Source: a virus
Taxonomy: Duplodnaviria > Caudoviricetes
Strand: one strand, 5' to 3'
DNA: 62,291 nucleotides
IMG/VR virus record: IMGVR_UViG_3300006750_000007
Coordinates: 1 to 62,291 of that record
Of this stretch, positions 1 to 62,291 are shown piece by piece. Under the pieces are notes generated by a model. The model was not told the origin of the DNA. It made no database searches and was given only the letters and a program-made list of their open reading frames with translations. Position 1 is the first letter of the stretch. The number at the start of each line of letters is the position of its first letter. Both the position numbers and the translations under genes were made by a program.

Positions 1-439
1 TGTTTGAAAAGGAGAAATATAGGTCTATAGGTCTAAGGGCGTAAGCCCTTAAACACATAAACTATACAATACATTTAAGCATTTGGATTGATTAACCAAT
101 CTAAGTTGGTCAATACTCCATCTATTATTACTTGTTCCTTTTTCATATGGCGATACGATTTAAGAATAGTGTTACCTATAGTGGTATTATACCTTATTAT
201 GATAAGGTATAGATTAGAGTCATAGGTATTAACTCGATTATACATAAAGTCCAACATATTAACATACTTTAATGTTGGTTAGTCTTTGTATCATGATATG
301 TCTTCAAAGATTACTTTAATATTTTAAATGTGTGAGGAGCTATAAACTCTCCTCCCTGCACTCAGCTGATGTGCGATTTTCCTATATGCCTATAGGGTGG
401 CTTTTAATATTAAGCTTTATTGATGTTCAAAAAGAGAGT

Positions 440-468
440 AAAAAAAAGGTATAGCCTTTAGGCTATAC
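440..468 (-). terminator. Rho-independent terminator of the 463..651 gene
   Basis: GTATAGCC-ttta-GGCTATAC (449-468) next to an A-run at 440-447 (U-tract on the minus strand); the ORF stop lies inside the stem. Confidence 0.7.
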
Positions 469-651
469 TCTTTTTGATACGAACTCGTATCCGATGGCTT
501 CGTCACTAAGACCAAGCGTTTTCGCTTGGGCGTGAGTGAAGAAGACGGAGCTAGGACGAGAAAGCTTTTTAGCTTTCTTGTCTAAAGAAGCGTTGAATTC
601 AACAATGACGAAATTATCTGTTGTTTTGATGTTGGCGATGATATTTTTCAT
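463..651 (-). CDS. small hypothetical protein (62 aa), divergent from the late module
   Basis: ORF with upstream hairpin and downstream terminator; higher GC than its surroundings. Confidence 0.7.
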   Translation of the reverse strand: MKNIIANIKTTDNFVIVEFNASLDKKAKKLSRPSSVFFTHAQAKTLGLSDEAIGYEFVSKRV

Positions 652-829
652 AACGCAATAGTATTAGCGGAGCGGGTTAGTTCCCACTCCATTACAAAGC
701 GCGGGTCTTTGATTGAGATGGTCAACGTATTCATAAATAAATTAAAAAAATATTTTCCCTAAAAAATTTTTTATATTATTTTTTTTATATCTTTACGCCA
801 GTTAACAACGATCACCACTACTCAGGATT

Positions 830-882
830 AAGCCTCCTGTCTTTCTTTCTTTCTTTCTTTTATTTCATCTCTCAGGAGGCTT
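830..882 (+). other. 10-bp inverted repeat enclosing a (CTTT)5 pyrimidine loop; possible small RNA or leader structure
   Basis: AAGCCTCCTG (830-839) / CAGGAGGCTT (873-882), 33-nt loop, intergenic. Confidence 0.5.
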
Positions 883-995
883 CTTCTTAAACATAAAATT
901 ACATTCATAATTATTCATATCTACTATAGAGGATAATAATGCCTTGAACTGAAATAGAAAGTAAACAGATTTGTTTACTAATTAAAAAAGAAAGA

Positions 996-4867: not shown

Positions 4868-6878
4868 GGAGAAGTCATTTGATAAGCATGATAATTTTAG
4901 AGAAGCTGCCCTTCACTTTAAAGAGTTTGGTAGATATACTAATTATACTCCGAACGATCATCCTGGTTCTCAATATTACAAGTATTGGGAAGAAGAGCAT
5001 CGTCGTTGTATAGAAGGATTAAATTTAGGATGGGATTTTATATCAGGTTATAATTATTGGTATCTTAATTATTCTCCCATACAGGTAGTAGAAGCACTAG
5101 AAGAAGTTAGTGAAGATGGTAGAGTTGAGGGTAGAAGGTTTGAAGACTTTCCTGCGTTCTGGGATGGTGATTATTATTACTATCATTATTTAGAAGAAGC
5201 AGAAAATCGAGGTAAACATGGTTCTGTTTTAAAAACAAGGGGTAGAGGTTACTCATTTAAAGGTGGGTCAATGTTGACTCGTAATTATTTTCATATTCCT
5301 AAGTCTAAATCTTATGCAATGGCATCTGAAAAAGCTTATCTTAATGAAGATGGTCTTCTTACTAAAGCATGGGACATTATGGATTTTGTTGATGAACATA
5401 CTCCTTGGTCTAAACGTAGACATTTTGCTGATAGACAAATGCATAGAAGAGCTAGTTATTCAGAAACTACAGGAGGACTAAAAATAGAAAAAGGATACAA
5501 GTCAGAAATTATTGGAGTATCATTAAAAGATAATCCTGATAAAGCAAGGGGAAAAAGGGGTAAGCTAATACTTTGGGAGGAAGCAGGAAAGTTTCCTGGT
5601 CTACTTAAAGCCTGGCAAGTAGCACGGCCATCAATGGAACAAGGTAAAATTACTTTTGGTTTAATGATTGCGTTTGGTACAGGTGGTACAGAAGGGGCCA
5701 ACTTTGAAGCGCTAGAAGAAACATTTTATAATCCTAAAGGTTATAATATTCATCATATAGAAAATATTTGGGATAAAGGTAGAGAAGGAACACAGTGTGG
5801 ATTCTTTATGCCTACTCTTATGAACTATGAAGGATGTTATAATAAATACGGAAGGAGCGATCAAGACAAAGCAAAAGAATGGGAGGATAAAGAAAGAAAA
5901 CTAATTAAAGAGAATGCTCAAAATGCTAATGCTTATTCTCAACATGTAGCAGAGAATCCTTATACTCCTCAAGAAGCAGTGATGAGAACTGCAGGTTCTA
6001 TATTCCCAATTAGATATTTAAGAGAACATCTTACTGAAATAGAATCAGACACTAAGAAGTATATAGATACTTCATGGATTGGTAAGTTTGTAGTAGAAGC
6101 TACAACTGGTAAAGTTGATTGGAAACTGGACCCAGATGCTAGACCAATTACTGCATTTCCACTTACAGATTCAAACAATATTGATGGAGCTCCCGTTCTA
6201 TATGAAATGCCTTATAGAAATGCTGATGGAGATATTCCTTATGGAATGTACATAGCAGGATGTGATCCATACGATCATGATGAATCTCAAACAAACTCGT
6301 TAGGTTCGTTATTTATAATGAATGTTCTTAACGACAGGATAGTAGCTGAGTATACAGGGAGACCTTCCACGGCGGAAGAGTTTTATGAATTGTCACGTAG
6401 AATATTAATATATTTTAATGCTAGAATGAATTATGAGAATAACCTTAAAGGATTATTTACATATTTCAAGAATAAGAATGCAACTCACTTACTTACTGAT
6501 ACTCCTGAAGTGCTGGTAGACAAAGAAGTAATGACTACAACTATGTTGAACCGTAAGAAAGGTACACCTGGTACGGTAATGGTTAACAAATGGGGCCGAG
6601 AATTAATTAAGACTTGGTTACTAACTCCTTGTCCAGATAATCCAGACGTAATGAATTTACAAAAGATTCGTTCCATCCCACTACTAAAGGAGTTAATTTA
6701 TTGGAACAAGGAAGGTAACTTTGATAGAGTTTCTTCGTTAATCATGTTAATGATTCAAAAACAAGAAGTTGCACGAATAGATGTTCATAAAGAAAAAAAA
6801 ATAAAAACATTATCGCAAGATCCATTTTGGGATAGGCCATTTAAAACACAAAATAGCTATAATAAATGGAACTTATAA
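4830..6878 (+). CDS. terL: terminase large subunit
   Basis: KTRGRGYS P-loop variant, LILWEEAG Walker B, GTGG coupling motif, GCDPYD and FDRV nuclease motifs; directly upstream of portal. Confidence 0.93.
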   Translation: MKKKKLIIPLFDKEKSFDKHDNFREAALHFKEFGRYTNYTPNDHPGSQYYKYWEEEHRRCIEGLNLGWDFISGYNYWYLNYSPIQVVEALEEVSEDGRVEGRRFEDFPAFWDGDYYYYHYLEEAENRGKHGSVLKTRGRGYSFKGGSMLTRNYFHIPKSKSYAMASEKAYLNEDGLLTKAWDIMDFVDEHTPWSKRRHFADRQMHRRASYSETTGGLKIEKGYKSEIIGVSLKDNPDKARGKRGKLILWEEAGKFPGLLKAWQVARPSMEQGKITFGLMIAFGTGGTEGANFEALEETFYNPKGYNIHHIENIWDKGREGTQCGFFMPTLMNYEGCYNKYGRSDQDKAKEWEDKERKLIKENAQNANAYSQHVAENPYTPQEAVMRTAGSIFPIRYLREHLTEIESDTKKYIDTSWIGKFVVEATTGKVDWKLDPDARPITAFPLTDSNNIDGAPVLYEMPYRNADGDIPYGMYIAGCDPYDHDESQTNSLGSLFIMNVLNDRIVAEYTGRPSTAEEFYELSRRILIYFNARMNYENNLKGLFTYFKNKNATHLLTDTPEVLVDKEVMTTTMLNRKKGTPGTVMVNKWGRELIKTWLLTPCPDNPDVMNLQKIRSIPLLKELIYWNKEGNFDRVSSLIMLMIQKQEVARIDVHKEKKIKTLSQDPFWDRPFKTQNSYNKWNL

Positions 6879-6923
6879 AAATAAATAATTATTATTGTAA
6901 ATTGATAAAATTCAAAAAAAGAA

Positions 6924-9389
6924 ATGGCGTATAATAATTTAACTCAGTTTCCTTCTCAAAAGAAATCAACTGCTCAAAAATTAGCGAGTAATAAAAAATG
7001 GGCAAAGGAATGCATTGATGCTTCTGAAGGTATTACAGACTTTAAAGACAATAGAATTCGTAGATCTTATTATAACAAGAAAGTCAACTATGATTTGTAC
7101 AATGATATCTTAGATCAAAATGATATTCAACAAGTTACAAATCCAATGGGATTACGAGATACTTCATTTCCTGCTAAGATGCAAAACTATCCAATAGCTA
7201 ATCCTAAGATAGATCTTTTATTAGGTGAAGAATATAAAAGAAGATTTGATTGGAGAGTACGTTCTGTAAACTCAGATGCTATATCACAAAAGGAAGACGA
7301 AAAGAAAAATCAAATAATGCAACTGATGAAGGAGCATTTAACTGAAGATGTATTTGATGAAGAAGAAGCAAAAAAAGAATTACAAAAATTAAATAAATAT
7401 CTTAATTACGATTACCAAGATCTTAGAGAATTAAATGCTACTAGACTTCTTACATATTTATACAAAGACCAAAGCCTTAAAACAAAATTCAATGCAGGAT
7501 TCTTAGACGGTTTAATTTCAGCAGAAGAAATTTATTGTTGTGATATTATATCAGGAGAACCAGTAATGAGAAAAGTAAATCCTCTTAATCTTCATACTTT
7601 ACGTAGTGGAGATTCTCATTTTATTGAAGATTCAGATATCATAATTGAGTTCTCATATGAATCAATAGGGAGAGTAATAGATATGTTCTATGACGAACTT
7701 ACGCCTAAAGAAGTAGATGACTTAGAGTCTGGTCATTCTTTAAAGAGCGAAACTAATTCACCATTAAATCATAAAAGTGCTAATGCTATTTTTGATCTTA
7801 GCACTTTAGCACAAGAACGTAATGGACAAGATGGACTGGTTGAAGTAAATTCAAATGCTGATCAATCTTATACAGGTGGAACATACGATACTGAAGGCAA
7901 TGTAAAAGTTACTAGAGTAGTATGGAAATCTAGAAGAAAGCTAGGCAAATTAAAATATTACGACGAAGAAGGAAACGAACAAGAAAAGATTGTTGACGAA
8001 AACTATAAAGCAGAGAAAGAGAGAGGAGAAGAAATTAAATGGATTTGGGTTAACGAATGGTGGGAAGGTACAAAAATCGGGGAGAATATTTATGTTAAAA
8101 TTGGACCACGTCCTGTACAATACCGTTCAATGGATAATCTTTCTAAATGTTATCCTGGATATGTAGGCACACTATATGCTACTAATGATTCAAAAGCGAA
8201 ATCATTAATGGATAGAATGAAACCATATCAGTATCTATATAATGTATTTATGTATAGAACTGAATTAGCATTTGCTAAATCTAAAGGTAAAATTGCACAA
8301 CTTGATTTATCTTTAGTACCAGACGAATGGGAACTTGATAAATGGATGTACTATGCTGAAGTATTAGGATGGGCCCCTGTTGACAGGTTTAAAGAAGGAA
8401 CTAAAGGTGCAGCTCAAGGAAAATTATCTGGGCAATTCCAACAACCTACTCAAGTATTAGATATGGAGATGGGTTCATATATTCAACAACATATTATGAT
8501 GTTAGGATATCTAGAGAACCAAATGGGAGAAATAGCAGGTGTTACTAAACAACGTCAAGGACAAATAGAGAATAGAGAATTAGTTGGAAACGTTGAAAGA
8601 GCAGTTAGTCAATCATCTCATATTACTGAGAAATGGTTTTCTGTTCATGATAATACAAAACTAAGAGCGCTAGCTACTTTATTAGAAACAGCTAAGTACG
8701 CATATAAAAAAGGTTCTAAGAAATTACAATATGTAACAGACGAGTTACAAACTGTAATGTTTGAAATAGATGGAGAAATGTTTAACGAAGCTGACTATGG
8801 ATTATTTATCTCGAATACTAATTCGGATATGGAATTACTTGCTTCTCTTAAGTCACTTGCACATGCAGGTATACAGAATGATAAGATATCGTTCTCACAA
8901 CTTATGGATATATACAATTCAGAATCTATATCTAGTATTCGTAGAAAAATTGAGAAGAGCGAAGCAGACAAAGCTCAAGAAGTTCAAGAAGCTCAAAAAC
9001 AACAACAAGAGCACGAGCAACAAATGGCAGCTAAACAACAAGAAGTTCAAAAAGAACTTCAACAAATGCAAATCGATAACCGTGAAGACGAACAAGCTCA
9101 TGAGATGGAGAAAGCATTACTGGATAGTAATACTAAACTTCAAATTAAAGCTATGGATTTCAACACAGGAGAAGAAAGAGATGATGATGATACTAATGAC
9201 AATTCTGTTAGAGATGACATCGATTTACAAAAACTTGTTCAATCTGGAAAGAAGATAGAGCAAGACTTTCAGTTGAAAAAAGAACAACTAACGGAAACTA
9301 AACGTAAGAACTTAGCCGACGAAAGAATAAAAAATAAGGATTTGAAGCAAAAAAAGGAGATAGCCTCCAAGCCTGCTATGACTAAATAA
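6924..9389 (+). CDS. portal protein
   Basis: 821 aa after TerL; NYPIANPKIDLLLGE, WIWVNEWWEGTKIG; coiled-coil C-terminus typical of crAss-like portals. Confidence 0.88.
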   Translation: MAYNNLTQFPSQKKSTAQKLASNKKWAKECIDASEGITDFKDNRIRRSYYNKKVNYDLYNDILDQNDIQQVTNPMGLRDTSFPAKMQNYPIANPKIDLLLGEEYKRRFDWRVRSVNSDAISQKEDEKKNQIMQLMKEHLTEDVFDEEEAKKELQKLNKYLNYDYQDLRELNATRLLTYLYKDQSLKTKFNAGFLDGLISAEEIYCCDIISGEPVMRKVNPLNLHTLRSGDSHFIEDSDIIIEFSYESIGRVIDMFYDELTPKEVDDLESGHSLKSETNSPLNHKSANAIFDLSTLAQERNGQDGLVEVNSNADQSYTGGTYDTEGNVKVTRVVWKSRRKLGKLKYYDEEGNEQEKIVDENYKAEKERGEEIKWIWVNEWWEGTKIGENIYVKIGPRPVQYRSMDNLSKCYPGYVGTLYATNDSKAKSLMDRMKPYQYLYNVFMYRTELAFAKSKGKIAQLDLSLVPDEWELDKWMYYAEVLGWAPVDRFKEGTKGAAQGKLSGQFQQPTQVLDMEMGSYIQQHIMMLGYLENQMGEIAGVTKQRQGQIENRELVGNVERAVSQSSHITEKWFSVHDNTKLRALATLLETAKYAYKKGSKKLQYVTDELQTVMFEIDGEMFNEADYGLFISNTNSDMELLASLKSLAHAGIQNDKISFSQLMDIYNSESISSIRRKIEKSEADKAQEVQEAQKQQQEHEQQMAAKQQEVQKELQQMQIDNREDEQAHEMEKALLDSNTKLQIKAMDFNTGEERDDDDTNDNSVRDDIDLQKLVQSGKKIEQDFQLKKEQLTETKRKNLADERIKNKDLKQKKEIASKPAMTK

Positions 9390-57836: not shown

Positions 57837-59207
57837 ATGGGAGAAGAAACTGGTATAAAAAGATATTTTTATTCTAATGAAGATTATATTATTAAATCTT
57901 TTAAGTCAGGAATGAAAAGAGGAAAAATTGGAGAATTTATAAAAAATAAATATAATATTGATGTTACAGATAGAACATGTAGAAGTCATGTATATGATAT
58001 TTTAAAAAAAGCAGGCCTTATTGATAAGGTTGTCGAAACAATAGAAGAAATAGGACTTATTGATTTTGAATCTACTACAGATACAAAAGACTATGATAAT
58101 TCTAAATCTATAAATTTTGATTTTCCTAAACCTGAAGATAAGAAAAAACCAGAAAAAGCAAACATCGAAGATAGACTAATTGAAGAATGTGAAAAATATG
58201 GTCTCGACCCTTCTGCGGTGAGCTCATATAAATTTGTTAATCACAATGGTCAAGATAAATTAAATATTGCTTTTCACCCCGATTACAAAAAAGACAACAG
58301 AACATCTGACGACTGGCTTGATAACTTCAAAGATATGATTGAAGATAGAATCGATCCTAAAATACCAACAGAAGTTAAAGAAGGAGAAAATATTCTAATA
58401 ATGAATATAGCTGATCTTCATGTAGGAATGGACCCAAATTTTGAAGGTTCTAGTATTTGGGAAGCTACTTGGACAAAGCAAGACATTATTGACGTAGCAT
58501 ATGAAATAGTTGCTTTCATTAAAAAGAAATTCGCTACAAAAGCATATCAATCAACAGTATTGAATTTATTAGGAGATTTAGTTGATGGATTTAACGCCGA
58601 AACTACAAGAGGTGGACATAAGTTGCCTCAAAACATGTCAAATATTGAACAATCTGACATAGTAGTTCTTTTCTTATATACTATAGTACAAGAATTACAC
58701 AAAGAAAAGATTCCTCTTTCTGTATATGGAACTTCTAATTCAAATCATGGTGGAGATTTTGAACATTTTACACTTCAAAAGTTTCAACTAATGGCTCAAT
58801 ATGAGTTCGGTACTCCTATAGTGATATCTAAGAAGTTAGCATTAGGATATAATTTACCTGGAACTAGAAAACCAGTTATGATTATGCACGGTAAAGATAA
58901 GCAATTTGCTACTAGACCTTTCCCCGCCAAAATTGATGACAAAGATGACTATAAAATAGAAGCTATTATAGATGCAGTTTGTGATAGACGTTCTCATCTT
59001 AAACCTATTGTATTTAAAGGAGATTCTCATCAGCATGTAATTCAATCTAAAAAGAATTATGAGTGGATAGCATGTATGACTAATGCTCCATCATCTGATT
59101 GGGTGAAAAACAACTTCTTTAATACCTCTAAAGGAGGAATAACATACTCAATATATAGCATACTTACCGATACTGTAGAAACAGGACTTCTTCCTTTCGA
59201 CGAGTAA
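57837..59207 (+). CDS. calcineurin-like metallophosphoesterase with possible N-terminal HTH
   Basis: ADLHVG, LGDLVDG, SNH, MHG, GDSH motifs. Confidence 0.8.
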   Translation: MGEETGIKRYFYSNEDYIIKSFKSGMKRGKIGEFIKNKYNIDVTDRTCRSHVYDILKKAGLIDKVVETIEEIGLIDFESTTDTKDYDNSKSINFDFPKPEDKKKPEKANIEDRLIEECEKYGLDPSAVSSYKFVNHNGQDKLNIAFHPDYKKDNRTSDDWLDNFKDMIEDRIDPKIPTEVKEGENILIMNIADLHVGMDPNFEGSSIWEATWTKQDIIDVAYEIVAFIKKKFATKAYQSTVLNLLGDLVDGFNAETTRGGHKLPQNMSNIEQSDIVVLFLYTIVQELHKEKIPLSVYGTSNSNHGGDFEHFTLQKFQLMAQYEFGTPIVISKKLALGYNLPGTRKPVMIMHGKDKQFATRPFPAKIDDKDDYKIEAIIDAVCDRRSHLKPIVFKGDSHQHVIQSKKNYEWIACMTNAPSSDWVKNNFFNTSKGGITYSIYSILTDTVETGLLPFDE

Positions 59208-60410: not shown

Positions 60411-60620
60411 TTAAGGTAAATAAATTACAATATTCACTACTGTATATATTAATGATATAAGATTAAAGATAAGTGCAAAACTAAAGAGTAAGAAATTATC
60501 TCCAACAGCCTTTTCTAAAGCATCTTCAACATTATGTTTAATATTATATTTATATCTTTTATATATAATCCTATCTAATAAGAAAGTGATTATAAATACT
60601 AATACTGTTAATGTTATCAT
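60411..60620 (-). CDS. small membrane protein
   Basis: two hydrophobic segments; ATGA/TGAT overlap with upstream gene. Confidence 0.6.
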   Translation of the reverse strand: MITLTVLVFIITFLLDRIIYKRYKYNIKHNVEDALEKAVGDNFLLFSFALIFNLISLIYTVVNIVIYLP

Positions 60621-60973
60621 AATTTAATATTTTTAATTTTTTTAATATATTCAGGGTCTTTAGCATATCCTAAGTCTGTTAAGAACTTATAATAATCTCC
60701 TCCTTTATATTTATACTGTATTTTAGTTATATATGCATCACAGCTTTCTTTCCAGTTATCAAATATAAGATACTTGTGGTCATATCTAAGGCCAAATAAG
60801 TTATGTCTGGCTCTACAACTATAAGATTTAAAATGTCCTGTCTCTAATACAGCTTGTGCTGTTACTATTTTGGGGTATTCACATTTTATTTCTACTAAAT
60901 AGTCATATACTTCTTGTTTAGTTTGAGTAATACCAAAAATTGGAATTAATAATAATATTAATAAATTTTTCAT
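60617..60973 (-). CDS. glucosaminidase (GH73-like) peptidoglycan hydrolase with N-terminal signal sequence
   Basis: AQAVLETG, NLFG, GYAKDPEY; MKNLLILLLIPIFG. Confidence 0.82.
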   Translation of the reverse strand: MKNLLILLLIPIFGITQTKQEVYDYLVEIKCEYPKIVTAQAVLETGHFKSYSCRARHNLFGLRYDHKYLIFDNWKESCDAYITKIQYKYKGGDYYKFLTDLGYAKDPEYIKKIKNIKL

Positions 60974-61283: not shown

Positions 61284-61446
61284 TCTTTTTAGTAAGCATA
61301 TCCATCAGGTTATCCATTCTAGCAGGTACAACTTTAAATGAATTACATACATCACAACACCTACCTTCTTTAACAGGCGTTGCATTATTTCCATAGCCTA
61401 TATATTCTAATGAACATATACAACATTTTTTAATTTCTCTACTCAT
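61252..61446 (-). CDS. small zinc-finger-like protein
   Basis: CCIC...GYGNNA.PV..GRCCDVCN. Confidence 0.7.
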   Translation of the reverse strand: MSREIKKCCICSLEYIGYGNNATPVKEGRCCDVCNSFKVVPARMDNLMDMLTKKNVGPKKRNNE

Positions 61447-61489
61447 CTTTGTTTTGGTTTAGTGTGGTTTATTTCTTTGTTATATTTAA

Positions 61490-61723
61490 TCATTCACTTG
61501 GGTACATTGTATTATCAAAAGAATTAAGTAAAGTTTTAGCTAACTCAATAGTTTCTTCCTCTGTTAATTGTATGTAGCCATCAGAGTTGCTTACTGTTAA
61601 TTGCAACATCCTACCTTTTTCTGCACCACCCCAAAACCTTGTTAAACTCATAGTAGTTTCTATTCTTTCAGTGCTTAATTCTGATTCTTTTATTCCTTTT
61701 AATGTTTCTATGTGTGTACTCAT
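61490..61723 (-). CDS. hypothetical protein (cassette-like gene)
   Basis: 77 aa; LTRFWGG..KGRMLQLT. Confidence 0.7.
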   Translation of the reverse strand: MSTHIETLKGIKESELSTERIETTMSLTRFWGGAEKGRMLQLTVSNSDGYIQLTEEETIELAKTLLNSFDNTMYPSE

Positions 61724-61753
61724 AATTTATAATTTTTTAAATCGTTCATAACT

Positions 61754-61812
61754 AAAATATAACAACGTGTATAGCACATTAAAACGATGCCATACACAAT
61801 GCGTTAGCATTA
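61754..61812 (-). repeat. attC-like imperfect palindrome 1
   Basis: minus strand TAATGCTAAC-gcatt-GTGTATGGCA-tcgttttaatg-TGCTATACAC-gtt-GTTATATTTT, immediately after a stop codon. Confidence 0.7.
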
Positions 61813-61815
61813 ATA

Positions 61816-62097
61816 CTACGTCCATAGTGCTAATCTAATTTTCATCAACCTATTAAGCATTTCATTGTCTTCATCATCATTATCAAATGAATCATCATTT
61901 TTACGCTTAACCCACCATTTGTAAAGTAACCTTACTTCATCTACAAAGTCCTTGTATGCTTCATAATCGCAATGGGTGTCAACATTTTCTTTTTCAACGC
62001 AATCTTGTAATATCTGAAAACAAGCGTGTAGCATTATGTGGTCTCTATCAACCCATTGCTTTGCGTTTGGTAAGCTATCAATCTTTAGTATTCTCAT
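61816..62097 (-). CDS. hypothetical protein (cassette-like gene)
   Basis: 93 aa; WVDRDHIMLHACFQIL...LYKWW...LWT. Confidence 0.75.
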   Translation of the reverse strand: MRILKIDSLPNAKQWVDRDHIMLHACFQILQDCVEKENVDTHCDYEAYKDFVDEVRLLYKWWVKRKNDDSFDNDDEDNEMLNRLMKIRLALWT

Positions 62098-62122
62098 AAT
62101 CTGTTTTTAAAATAATCCGTAC

Positions 62123-62180
62123 TAATGCTAACAATATGTAACAGCCATTAAAACGACCTGTTACACGGAGCATTATATGC
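62123..62180 (-). repeat. attC-like imperfect palindrome 2
   Basis: minus strand GCATATAAT-gctccg-TGTAACAG-gtcgttttaatgg-CTGTTACA-tatt-GTTAGCATTA. Confidence 0.65.
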
Positions 62181-62291
62181 AATTTTGCATTTTATCCTCC
62201 CAATATTTTTTTCTTTTATAATGATAATAACCAATAGGTGAAAAATGTATTCCATCTTCATCCCATTTAGTATTAGCATCCTCCATTATAA
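62173..62291 (-). CDS. 3' end of a gene probably starting beyond the window
   Basis: open frame ...MEDANTKWDEDGIHFSPIGYYHYKRKKYWEDKMQNCI*, stop inside palindrome 2. Confidence 0.5.
   Translation of the reverse strand, partial: IMEDANTKWDEDGIHFSPIGYYHYKRKKYWEDKMQNCI

What the first reader, a model, noticed from the sequence alone, without database searches (positions are those of the whole stretch)
61479..62291. Integron-like cassette array (attC-like sites) among the small minus-strand genes
Seen on the minus strand: two palindromes of about 55 bp (62123-62180, 61754-61812), each starting at or just after a stop codon with ..TAAC/TAAT and ending GTTA... They share an 11-nt loop (CATTAAAACGA on +, at 61777 and 62146) but have different, self-compensating inner stems. 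The GTTAGCATTA before the 93-aa gene is the exact reverse complement of TAATGCTAAC after that same gene. GTTATATTT before the 77-aa gene likewise matches AAATATAAC after its stop (61479-61487), where the rest of the site is lost. Known: this own-end complementarity is the hallmark of integron cassettes integrated at G/TT from circles. Inference: a lytic phage acquiring single-gene cassettes (one is 369 bp) through attC-like recombination. No integrase is in the window, and the sites are slightly shorter and spaced differently than canonical attC.
Basis: partly seen in the sequence, partly recalled or inferred. Interest (0 to 1): 0.82.

Follow-up and report, generated by a model that had tools for sequence, protein, structure and literature searches.

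The report
Integron-like gene cassettes in a phage
Two small genes at the end of this marine crAss-like phage contig sit in hairpin-bounded cassettes of a widespread family that, in other phages of Bacteroidota, forms long arrays next to its own recombinase gene, much like a bacterial integron.

Summary
Both hairpins, the shared 11-nt loop and the inverted 10- and 9-nt ends around the 93-aa and 77-aa genes are at the stated coordinates.

They belong to a large family in viral contigs. The inner stem covaries at 10 of 10 pairs and the TAAC/GTTA boxes are invariant.

In 95 of 136 neighbouring site pairs, the flank after one site pairs with the flank before the next. Same-site pairing is at the random level, 17% against 15%.

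The window has no integrase. In five large phage records one small tyrosine recombinase of the Xer/IntI group lies just downstream of an array. Of 42 close homologues with upstream sequence, 40 have sites upstream on the same strand. A conserved hairpin-less junction precedes the recombinase gene.

One member, in Polaribacter phage P12002L, was published as a predicted attC, but IntI1 did not recombine it.

Best reading (0.65): an integrase-less fragment of a phage-borne, integron-like cassette system. The recombinase lacks the IntI insertion, the cassette genes face the recombinase and no recombination has been shown. An RNA role for the hairpins is not excluded.

The parts
62120..62184 (-). 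Site B, an attC-like hairpin site. 5' box TAAT (62175-62172, a mutated TAAC that overlaps the stop codon), inner stem, loop TCGTTTTAATG (62156-62146), GTTA (62132-62129), variable hexamer GCATTA (62128-62123).
   Evidence: CM hit of 66.5 bits. Aligned with 62 other family members.
61804..62172 (-). Cassette 2 (369 bp): the core of site B, a leader beginning GTTAGCATTA, the 93-aa ORF (61816-62097) and a tail ending TAATGCTAA. The two ends form a 14-bp helix with one G.T pair.
   Evidence: Homologues are bounded at the same boxes. A metagenome contig keeps the leader and tail but skips the ORF (joint 61825>62111).
61751..61815 (-). Site A, an attC-like hairpin site. TAATGC (61812-61807), TAAC (61806-61803), 9-bp stem, the same loop (61787-61777), GTTA (61763-61760), hexamer TATTTT (61759-61754).
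   Evidence: CM hit of 69.7 bits. The identical core occurs in L026 and L142 with other flanks. Contigs from 4 metagenome studies match only about 61760-61806.
61480..61803 (-). Cassette 1 (324 bp): the core of site A, a leader beginning GTTATATTTT, the 77-aa ORF (61490-61723) and a tail TAAATATAA.
   Evidence: In 4 of 4 contexts the homology starts at GTTATATTTT and ends at TAAATA[TC]AAC. Weak PHROG matches of unknown function.
61479..61488 (-). End of cassette 1: TAAATA plus TAAC, with no hairpin after it. On the + strand it reads TTTCTTTG|TTATATTTA, which looks like a junction with a secondary GTT site or a truncated site.
   Evidence: No fold. The sequence after TAAC is unlike both the family's G-plus-hairpin and the recombinase-proximal motif. 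The near-identical relative L132 diverges from the window upstream of 61461.
62173..62291 (-). Part of a third cassette (37-aa ORF 62173-62286) that runs off the contig end. Its tail hexamer is TGCATA (62181-62176).
   Evidence: The window is the whole record held.
61444..61460 (-). Leader AAACCAAAACAAAGATG of the 64-aa gene. This is where homology with relative L132 resumes. L132 repeats this leader in front of several small genes.

Best explanation
The two hairpins are recombination sites (attC-like) of a phage-borne, integron-like gene-cassette system. The window holds an integrase-less fragment of such an array: two whole cassettes and part of a third.

How a site and a cassette look in the family:
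- A site reads, on the gene-sense strand: cassette tail (AT, six variable bases, TAAC), G, about 4 unpaired bases, a covarying stem, a loop, the stem's partner, 1-2 bases, TT, GTTA, six variable bases, GT.
- The loop is either the conserved TCGTTTTAATG or a long one of 60-120 nt.
- The six variable bases after GTTA pair with those before the TAAC of the next site. Each gene is therefore closed by a helix of about 16 bp, which would extend the hairpin if the cassette were a circle.

What complete elements look like:
- Arrays of up to 15 same-strand sites within the 8 kb fetched upstream end at a conserved hairpin-less junction (TAAC, then TA..TATAT).
- That junction lies about 50 nt before the start of a 266-268-aa tyrosine recombinase of the Xer/IntI group.
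- I infer that this enzyme exchanges one strand of the folded site at the TAAC box, which reads G|TTA on the other strand. It would insert and excise units made of a hairpin plus the gene downstream of it.

In the window:
- The array has no recombinase in cis.
- Site B carries TAAT instead of TAAC.
- The last cassette ends at a non-hairpin junction.
- These cassettes are probably captured, now largely fixed, cargo shared with unrelated marine Bacteroidota phages.

Shown: site structure, covariation, own-end pairing, linkage to the recombinase, the conserved junction and cassette turnover. Inferred: catalysis by this recombinase, the crossover point, circular intermediates and which nucleic acid folds.
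For: - **Family size.** The pattern loop-N11-TTGTTA gave more than 131 viral-contig loci, many with several sites 300-1000 bp apart.
- **Structure.** In 64 distinct sites all 10 inner-stem pairs show compensatory changes, 98.1% of cells are paired, and 0 of 500 shuffles reach this. TAAC/GTTA are invariant except for one U.G.
- **Own-end pairing.**
  - 95 of 136 distinct neighbouring pairs have at least 5 of 6 variable positions paired; for gaps up to 400 nt it is 68 of 81.
  - Same-site pairing is 41 of 247, and random pairing 15%.
  - An earlier, stricter test gave 10 of 23 against 0 of 119 for the same site.
- **Recombinase linkage.**
  - Each of 5 large phage records has PF00589 matches at a single locus close downstream of an array on the same strand. 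In G003 the match is in two pieces.
  - In the 80 loci found with that protein there are 252 same-strand sites upstream and 9 downstream. The opposite strand has 16 and 1.
  - Among homologues at 60% identity or more, 40 of 42 have at least one upstream site. At 48-59% it is 14 of 21, and below 48% it is 0 of 6.
- **Junction.** The recombinase-proximal junction motif was found in 48 of 48 loci examined, 45 of them distinct.
- **Turnover.**
  - Two contigs with 99.5% identical recombinase genes carry different proximal cassettes.
  - Two contigs with 100% identical genes differ in their distal cassettes.
- **Enzyme class.** The recombinase falls in the XerA/XerC/XerD/IntI group.
- **Same cassettes in other contexts.** Homologues of the window's genes are bounded at the boxes.
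- **Prior prediction.** The primer sequence of the published P12002L_attC1 carries the family loop. The model finds 5 sites in that phage, 3 of them above 50 bits, beside methyltransferase genes.
- **Folding strand.** G.T outnumbers A.C by 126 to 8 in the closing helix and 20 to 2 in the inner stem. The gene-sense strand therefore folds. With the recombinase drawn on the left, this is the 'bottom' strand, as in integrons (integron rule recalled).
Against: - **No recombination shown.** None has been shown for any member. IntI1 failed on P12002L_attC1, the only member tested.
- **Window.** It has no recombinase.
- **Enzyme.** The family's recombinase lacks the IntI-specific insertion and reaches no curated NCBIfam cut-off. 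Its closest cultured relatives are annotated as ordinary phage integrases, so it could be a lysogeny integrase sitting beside a plastic region.
- **Hairpin-gene linkage.** Cores are not stably linked to either neighbouring gene. Of 9 homologous cassette pairs, both cores differ in 4, only the upstream core is shared in 2, only the downstream core in 1, and both in 2.
- **Exchange point with L132.** The window and its 98% relative L132 exchange genes at a conserved leader, not at a hairpin.
- **Bacterial copies.** Single copies of the hairpin lie beside ordinary genes in Bacteroidota genomes. That also fits a terminator-like element.
- **Folding strand.** Sense-strand folding fits RNA equally well.
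- **Site finder.** It demands exact TAAC and GTTA and a stem of at least 10 bp. Sites are therefore missed, and 41 of 136 neighbouring pairs do not pair.
Confidence: 0.65

Rival explanations
1. The sites are regulatory RNA hairpins, in the manner of the PeSLs of T4-type phages. They would act on the transcript as a terminator, a processing site or a stabiliser. The helix that closes each gene would be an RNA helix. Genes would be shuffled by homologous recombination between the conserved hairpins, and the recombinase would merely be the phage's integrase sitting beside a plastic region.
For: - The strand that folds is the mRNA-sense strand (G.T 126 against A.C 8).
- 85 of 95 cassettes have their longest ORF on that strand. 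The stop codon lies in or beside the helix.
- Long cores enclose the 5' UTR and the start codon.
- Single copies follow ordinary genes in Bacteroidota genomes.
- Cores shuffle on both sides.
- The exchange with L132 lies at a leader motif.
- PeSL-mediated shuffling and mini-circles are documented (abstracts of PMC2839356 and PMC4122927).
Against: - Homologous recombination alone gives no reason for each gene's two ends to be complementary while the two flanks of one site are not (17%, the random level).
- The scan flags no terminator at either site, and promoter-like hits are below the shuffled mean (18 against 25.2).
- No Rfam family matches.
- None of the five large records encodes RNase III.
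- This reading does not explain the tight, one-sided, strand-specific linkage to one recombinase clade, or the shared TAAC boundary at a hairpin-less junction.
Confidence: 0.2
2. The hairpin cores themselves are small selfish palindromic elements, REP- or MITE-like, that spread in Bacteroidota and their phages and insert between TAAC and GTTA. On this view the genes are passengers, not cassettes.
For: - The same core, with its boxes, recurs with unrelated flanks in many contigs and in 4 metagenome studies. The similarity breaks exactly at the outer edges of TAAC and GTTA.
- Solitary copies occur in bacterial genomes, and some have self-complementary flanks, for example L233.
Against: - Inserting a palindrome would not make the flank after one copy complementary to the flank before the next copy, hundreds of bases away.
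- No target-site duplication was noticed in the flanks listed; this was not tested formally.
- Long cores contain the start of the downstream gene.
- Cassette ends occur without any core.
Confidence: 0.08
3. Chance palindromes in AT-rich intergenic DNA.
For: The genome is 32% G+C. Short AT-rich inverted repeats are common in such DNA.
Against: - The exact 11-mer loop occurs only in these two hairpins.
- CM hits are at E about 1e-13.
- The family has full covariation.
Confidence: 0.01

Closest known systems
Classical integrons (IntI integrase, attI, arrays of cassettes each with an attC)
   Same: - Hairpin sites of about 57-150 bp with AAC...GTT outer boxes, an unpaired spacer and an inner stem.
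- Each cassette's start is complementary to the outer box of its own site.
- Same-orientation arrays lie next to a tyrosine recombinase of the Xer/IntI group, with a distinct hairpless junction beside that gene.
- With the recombinase drawn on the left, the strand that folds is the bottom strand.
- The cut position is compatible with G|TT.
- Integrase-less clusters and single sites also occur.
   Different: - The recombinase has 266-268 aa and lacks the IntI-specific insertion. It scores 151-161 bits on TIGR02249 against a cut-off of 265, and it aligns to IntI4 only over residues 21-180.
- No conserved extrahelical bases are seen, and the inner stem is fully paired.
- Many sites have a conserved 11-nt loop.
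- The outer helix is about 16 bp with a conserved G.T pair, instead of 7 bp.
- Cassette genes face the recombinase. They sit downstream of their own hairpin, and long hairpins enclose the gene's start.
- The carriers are phages of Bacteroidota.
Clusters of attC sites without an integrase (CALINs) in phage genomes (Qi et al. 2023, PMC9892861; abstract, section 3.4, Table 2 passages and supplementary primer table read)
   Same: - That paper reports integrase-less attC clusters in virulent phages, among them Polaribacter phage P12002L.
- Its P12002L_attC1 primer sequence carries this family's loop and boxes.
- The model built here finds that site and four more in P12002L, beside methyltransferase genes.
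   Different: - The paper treats the sites as ordinary bacterial-integron attC sites. attC1 was predicted by HattCI only, and it was the one site of six that IntI1 did not recombine.
- In the parts read, the paper describes no dedicated recombinase, no conserved junction, no family-wide own-end rule and no arrays in large phages.
PeSL regulatory cassettes of T4-type phages (Arbiol et al. 2010, PMC2839356; Comeau et al. 2014, PMC4122927; abstracts read)
   Same: Conserved stem-loop modules flank small non-essential genes in plastic regions. They serve as exchange points, and mini-circles have been reported for them.
   Different: - PeSLs are a sigma-70 promoter plus a terminator, and they recombine by homology.
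- They have no dedicated recombinase and, per the abstracts, no complementarity between a gene's own two ends.
- No promoter or terminator signal was detected at the window's sites.
Integration of CTX phage by XerCD at a folded single-stranded hairpin (recalled, not looked up)
   Same: A Xer-type recombinase acts on a site formed by folding one DNA strand, and one strand is exchanged.
   Different: There the host's enzymes integrate a whole phage genome at dif. There are no arrays and no cassettes.

Membership tests
Integron (complete) | An integron integrase: a tyrosine recombinase carrying the IntI-specific extra segment | tested here: not met
   The window has no PF00589 match. The family's recombinase scores 151-161 bits on TIGR02249 (cut-off 265), in two stretches. 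It aligns to IntI4 (2a3v) only over residues 21-180, but to XerA (4a8e) over its full length.
Integron (complete) | attC sites: an imperfect hairpin with outer boxes ending AAC and starting GTT | tested here: met
   TAAC/GTTA are invariant in 64 distinct sites, apart from one U.G. Window site A has both boxes. Site B has TAAT in place of TAAC.
Integron (complete) | Conserved extrahelical bases in the inner (L) stem of attC | tested here: not met
   The 10-bp inner stem is 98.1% paired, and the alignment of short-core sites has no conserved bulge column.
Integron (complete) | The start of each cassette is complementary to the outer box of its own site, not to that of the preceding site | tested here: met
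   Window: 10 of 10 and 9 of 10 bases. Family: 95 of 136 neighbouring pairs, against 41 of 247 for the same site and 15% at random.
Integron (complete) | An attI site between the integrase gene and the first cassette | tested here: inconclusive
   A conserved hairpin-less junction (TAAC, then TA..TATAT) lies about 50 nt before the recombinase start in 48 of 48 loci examined. Its function is untested. Nothing like it is in the window.
Integron (complete) | Recombination of the sites by an integron integrase | not testable with these tools
   The published assay was negative with IntI1 for the P12002L member. The family's own recombinase has never been tested.
Integron (complete) | Detection by the IntegronFinder attC covariance model | not testable with these tools
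   That model is not on hand. According to the legend of Figure 2 in PMC9892861, P12002L_attC1 was predicted with HattCI only, and attC2 with HattCI plus Infernal.
CALIN (two or more attC sites, no integrase nearby) | At least two sites close together in the same orientation, with no integrase on the contig | tested here: met
   Two sites 369 bp apart on the minus strand, and no PF00589 match on the contig. This holds only if the sites are accepted as attC-like. The contig is 63% complete.
PeSL (promoter plus terminator cassette) | A strong sigma-70-type promoter joined to an effective stem-loop terminator | tested here: not met
   The scan flags no terminator at either site, and promoter-like hits are not enriched (18 against 25.2 in shuffles). 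The scan does not cover Bacteroidota-type promoters.
Known structured RNA family (Rfam 15) | A match at the gathering score | tested here: not met
   There were 0 matches in the window. Only chance-level hits appeared at E up to 10. Twelve related loci gave no family apart from one tRNA.

The most novel reading that the evidence does not exclude
Phages of Bacteroidota, from about 40-kb siphoviruses and crAss-like phages to 300-460-kb giants, share a pool of gene cassettes run by their own integron-like machinery.

That machinery would comprise:
- a minimal Xer-type recombinase;
- a conserved insertion junction beside its gene;
- hairpin sites that fold on the gene-sense strand.

Cassettes bring their own expression signals, and in long sites the start of the gene lies inside the hairpin. 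This would be either an independent invention of the integron principle or a relative of its ancestor. The solitary hairpins next to ordinary genes in Bacteroidota chromosomes would be its footprints in host genomes.
Probability: 0.5. Interest if true: 0.9.

Novelty: new variant of a known kind. Interest (0 to 1): 0.82.

Why it matters
**A second gene-capture platform.** If the recombinase does move these cassettes, this is a second, phage-borne platform built on the integron principle but with a simpler enzyme.

**What it would explain.**
- How unrelated marine phages come to carry the same small genes. The window's 93-aa and 77-aa genes recur at 89-96% identity in other contigs with different neighbours.
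- How methyltransferase genes come to sit beside such sites. In P12002L and Tenacibaculum phage JQ they flank the sites.

**A testable handle on origins.** The recombinase is closer to XerA than to IntI, so it may bear on where integrons came from.

**Annotation.** The family can be used to mark cassette boundaries in phage metagenomes. These sites are currently unannotated, or are taken for bacterial attC sites.

**Tools.** It offers new pairs of recombinase and hairpin site.

Tried and rejected
**Searches that found nothing**
- Rfam gave nothing, in the window or in 12 related loci.
- DNA similarity of the region to GenBank phages gave no match. The 65-nt site gave only Tenacibaculum phage JQ and chance hits.
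- Terminal repeats of the contig: none.
- RNase III in five large records: none.
- The motif as a word in papers: only primers.

**Ideas considered and dropped**
- Terminator or promoter reading: not supported by the scan.
- A frame link between the loop's ATG and the downstream ORF was worked out by hand and found out of frame. The start-less ORFs were instead explained by start codons inside long cores.
- Ribozymes, bulge-helix-bulge introns, translational bypass and shufflon-type inversion were dropped, for two reasons. No core motifs match any of them, and all sites in an array have one orientation.
- tRNA-like cassettes: ARAGORN found only one ordinary tRNA, outside the sites.

**Tests that did not decide**
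- The test of whether cores are linked to the upstream or the downstream gene rested on only 9 pairs and was indecisive.
- Reads: only contigs were available, so circles or rare excision products could not be looked for. The 62134>61773 item with 7 letters between could not be interpreted. Parts of the stretch without cover say nothing.
- Of the 121 pattern hits in bacterial genomes, 79 lacked the stem or box and were set aside as chance.

**Looked at but not followed up**
- The split recombinase in G003 was not examined further.

**Steps not run**
- No structure or complex prediction was run.
- The protein databases were not searched for the cassette proteins.
Full report
**What is in the window**

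The window is the whole record held: 62,291 bases, 32% G+C, no terminal repeats. Its large terminase is about 44% identical to those of crAss-like phages. CheckV rates the record 63% complete. Near-identical DNA turns up only in marine and seawater metagenomes.

The last 3 kb carry small genes on the minus strand.
- Site B begins at the stop codon of the truncated last ORF. Site A begins 3 nt after the stop of the 93-aa gene.
- Both sites have the loop TCGTTTTAATG. The 11-mer occurs nowhere else in the window.
- Their stems differ but each pairs with itself, and both end in TTGTTA.
- GTTAGCATTA in front of the 93-aa gene is the exact complement of TAATGCTAAC behind it.
- GTTATATTT in front of the 77-aa gene matches AAATATAAC behind it, and no hairpin follows there.

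**A large family**

Many contigs carry several copies 300-1000 bp apart, and contig sizes run from 4 to 464 kb.

I aligned 64 distinct sites and counted base pairs.
- The boxes TAAC and GTTA are invariant, apart from one U.G.
- All ten inner-stem pairs show changes on both sides, and 98.1% of cells are paired.
- None of 500 shuffles, and none of the slid controls, comes near this.

A covariance model built from the alignment finds only the two sites in the window. In the loci it also finds a second class with the same outer boxes but cores of about 70-130 nt. Rfam has no family for either class.

By this alignment, site B's 5' box is a TAAC mutated to TAAT. The signal between sites is the real one.

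**The own-end rule**

I wrote a simple finder: TAAC, a stem of at least 10 pairs just inside, then GTTA. It found 247 distinct sites and 136 distinct neighbouring pairs.
- In 95 of the 136 pairs, at least five of the six variable bases after GTTA of one site pair with the six before TAAC of the next site. For gaps up to 400 nt the figure is 68 of 81.
- The two flanks of a single site pair in 41 of 247 cases, which is the random level of 15%.
- An earlier, stricter count gave the same picture.
- The helix runs on to about 16 bp. Position 11 is a G.T pair in 68 of 95.
- G.T outnumbers A.C by 126 to 8 in this helix and by 20 to 2 in the inner stem. The gene-sense strand is therefore the one that folds.
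- 85 of 95 cassettes have their longest ORF on that strand. The start codon lies a median of 39 nt after GTTA, and the stop lies in or next to the helix.
- After long cores the ORF is open from the G of GTTA, because its start codon lies inside the core's loop.

**The recombinase**

The window has no tyrosine recombinase. I searched five large phage records that carry arrays; one has terminal repeats and is rated 100% complete.
- Their sites are all on one strand and lie in clusters of 3-6 kb.
- Each record has PF00589 matches at a single locus. The gene encodes about 266-268 aa and lies close downstream of an array on the same strand. In G003 it appears split.
- The protein has the catalytic domain plus a SAM-like N-terminal domain.
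- Its best NCBIfam match is the XerA-type model at 179-195 bits, against a cut-off of 220. The integron-integrase model gives 151-161 bits against 265, in two stretches.
- It aligns to XerA over its full length, but to IntI4 only over residues 21-180. It therefore belongs to the Xer/IntI group but lacks the IntI insertion.
- Its nearest cultured relatives (31-40% identity) are annotated integrases of Cellulophaga and Polaribacter phages.

Starting from this protein, 80 further loci were fetched.
- Same-strand sites number 252 upstream and 9 downstream. The opposite strand has 16 and 1.
- Among loci with at least 1 kb of upstream sequence, 40 of 42 homologues at 60% identity or more have an upstream site. 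At 48-59% it is 14 of 21, and below 48% it is 0 of 6.
- The gene between the last site and the recombinase differs from contig to contig.
- That gene ends with the usual tail and TAAC. What follows is not G and a hairpin but a conserved TA..TATAT stretch, about 50 nt before the recombinase start. A loose pattern found this in 48 of 48 loci examined, 45 of them distinct.
- Two contigs with 99.5% identical recombinase genes carry different proximal cassettes. Two with identical genes share the two proximal cassettes and differ further out.

**How it maps onto an integron**

Turn the picture so that the recombinase is on the left and reads leftward; for the window this is the + strand. Each site then reads outer box ending AAC, core, outer box beginning GTTA.
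- The right-hand box of one site is complementary to the left-hand box of the next.
- The conserved junction sits where attI would be.
- The folding strand is the bottom strand.
- The junction is compatible with a cut at G|TTA.

This is the layout of a classical integron, as I recall it. The differences are that the genes point toward the recombinase and that each hairpin lies upstream of its own gene.

On this reading the window holds:
- cassette 1, 61480-61803 (site A plus the 77-aa gene);
- cassette 2, 61804-62172 (369 bp; site B plus the 93-aa gene);
- the start of a third cassette.

At 61479|61480 the + strand reads TTTCTTTG|TTATATTTA. That looks like insertion at a secondary GTT, or like a truncated site. 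Site B has A in place of the G at 62172.

**The window's cassettes elsewhere**

The 77-aa gene recurs at 92-96% identity in three contigs. In all four contexts the similarity starts at GTTATATTTT and stops at TAAATA[TC]AAC. The hairpins upstream differ in two of the contexts, and only one context has a hairpin downstream.

The 93-aa gene has nine relatives, eight at 89-95% identity and one at 34%.
- Together with the window, three contexts have GTTAGCATTA upstream.
- Three have TAATGCTAAC downstream, five have variants of it, and two have neither.
- In L026 the same pair of ends encloses an unrelated 163-aa ORF.

Contigs from four metagenome studies match only about 61760-61806, from GTTA to TAAC, with unlike sequence on both sides. 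One contig keeps the leader and tail of cassette 2 but skips its ORF.

The 98% relative L132 lacks both cassettes. It rejoins the window at the leader AAACCAAAACAAAGATG, not at a hairpin.

**Prior work**

Qi et al. 2023 (PMC9892861) reported integrase-less attC clusters in phages. Their primer for P12002L_attC1 carries this family's loop and boxes. It was predicted by HattCI only, and it was the one site of six that IntI1 failed to recombine.

The model built here finds five sites in P12002L, 3 of them above 50 bits, and two in Tenacibaculum phage JQ. They lie next to methyltransferase and Mom-like genes.

Full-text searches for phage integrons, for attC with Flavobacteri-, and for the motif itself found nothing describing the recombinase, the junction or the arrays. 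These searches cover only the library held.

**Host genomes**

Of these, 42 have the stem and box. Nearly all of the 42 are in Bacteroidota; a few are on small contigs binned with archaea or other phyla.

Most are single copies beside ordinary genes. An exact 10-nt partner lies within 1.5 kb in 5 of 33 cases upstream and 5 of 33 downstream, against 0.25 and 0.41 in shuffles. Some solitary copies have self-complementary flanks.

**Weighing**

The own-end rule, the one-sided linkage to one recombinase clade, the shared TAAC boundary at a hairpin-less junction and cassette turnover beside a constant recombinase together favour site-specific cassette exchange. I put this at 0.65.

Against it:
- No recombination has been shown, and IntI1 failed on one member.
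- Cores are not stably linked to either neighbour.
- One exchange lies at a leader rather than a hairpin.
- Solitary copies beside ordinary genes, and folding of the sense strand, fit an RNA element as well.

The RNA and homologous-recombination reading (0.2) cannot explain why a gene's two ends pair while a site's own flanks do not. The two roles may also coexist.

Noticed in passing
window 60620-60973 (-) and L145 5783-6319 (+): The 118-aa protein three genes downstream of the window's cassettes has a glucosaminidase domain (PF01832, 1.9e-14). It is 33% identical (E 4e-12) to the 178-aa protein that directly follows the recombinase in record G001. This may be a trace of shared gene order, with the recombinase missing from the window.
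   Followed up: partly
L132 9780-11000 (-); window 61444-61460 (-): In the 98% relative, five small genes are each preceded by nearly the same leader, AAACCAAAACAAAGATG. The window has it once, exactly where similarity to the relative resumes. It looks like a second, homology-based exchange point in this phage's early region.
   Followed up: partly
L018, L024, L032, L034, L149 and others (long-core sites): Genes that start inside long cores share an N-terminal leader of about 25 aa. It ends in a motif such as NLNISDV, which is encoded by the conserved 3' strand of the hairpin, and is followed by unrelated sequence. The hairpin thus dictates part of the protein.
   Followed up: partly
L034 (-), 171-nt cassette listed: One cassette has no convincing sense ORF. 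It holds three copies of a GTTCGATTC-like stretch reminiscent of tRNA T-arms. ARAGORN finds no tRNA in L034.
   Followed up: partly
window 1-990: The left end of the contig has almost no long ORFs. It is rich in short repeats and G+C-rich hairpins, for example a doubled TATAGGTC followed by a palindrome. It may be a regulatory or end region.
   Followed up: no
G003 (L147 about 6146-7200; L230): In the 464-kb record the recombinase matches in two pieces about 800 nt apart. The gene may be interrupted or broken.
   Followed up: no
L233-L312 (bacterial genome contigs): CAAX-protease-like genes (PF02517) lie next to solitary hairpins in three unrelated Bacteroidota genomes (L234, L272, L277).
   Followed up: no
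window 57837-59207 (+): The 456-aa protein next to the small-gene block matches phage exonuclease families (phrog_22398, 4.4e-34; weaker matches to phrog_284 and phrog_704). It has no Pfam hit.
   Followed up: no
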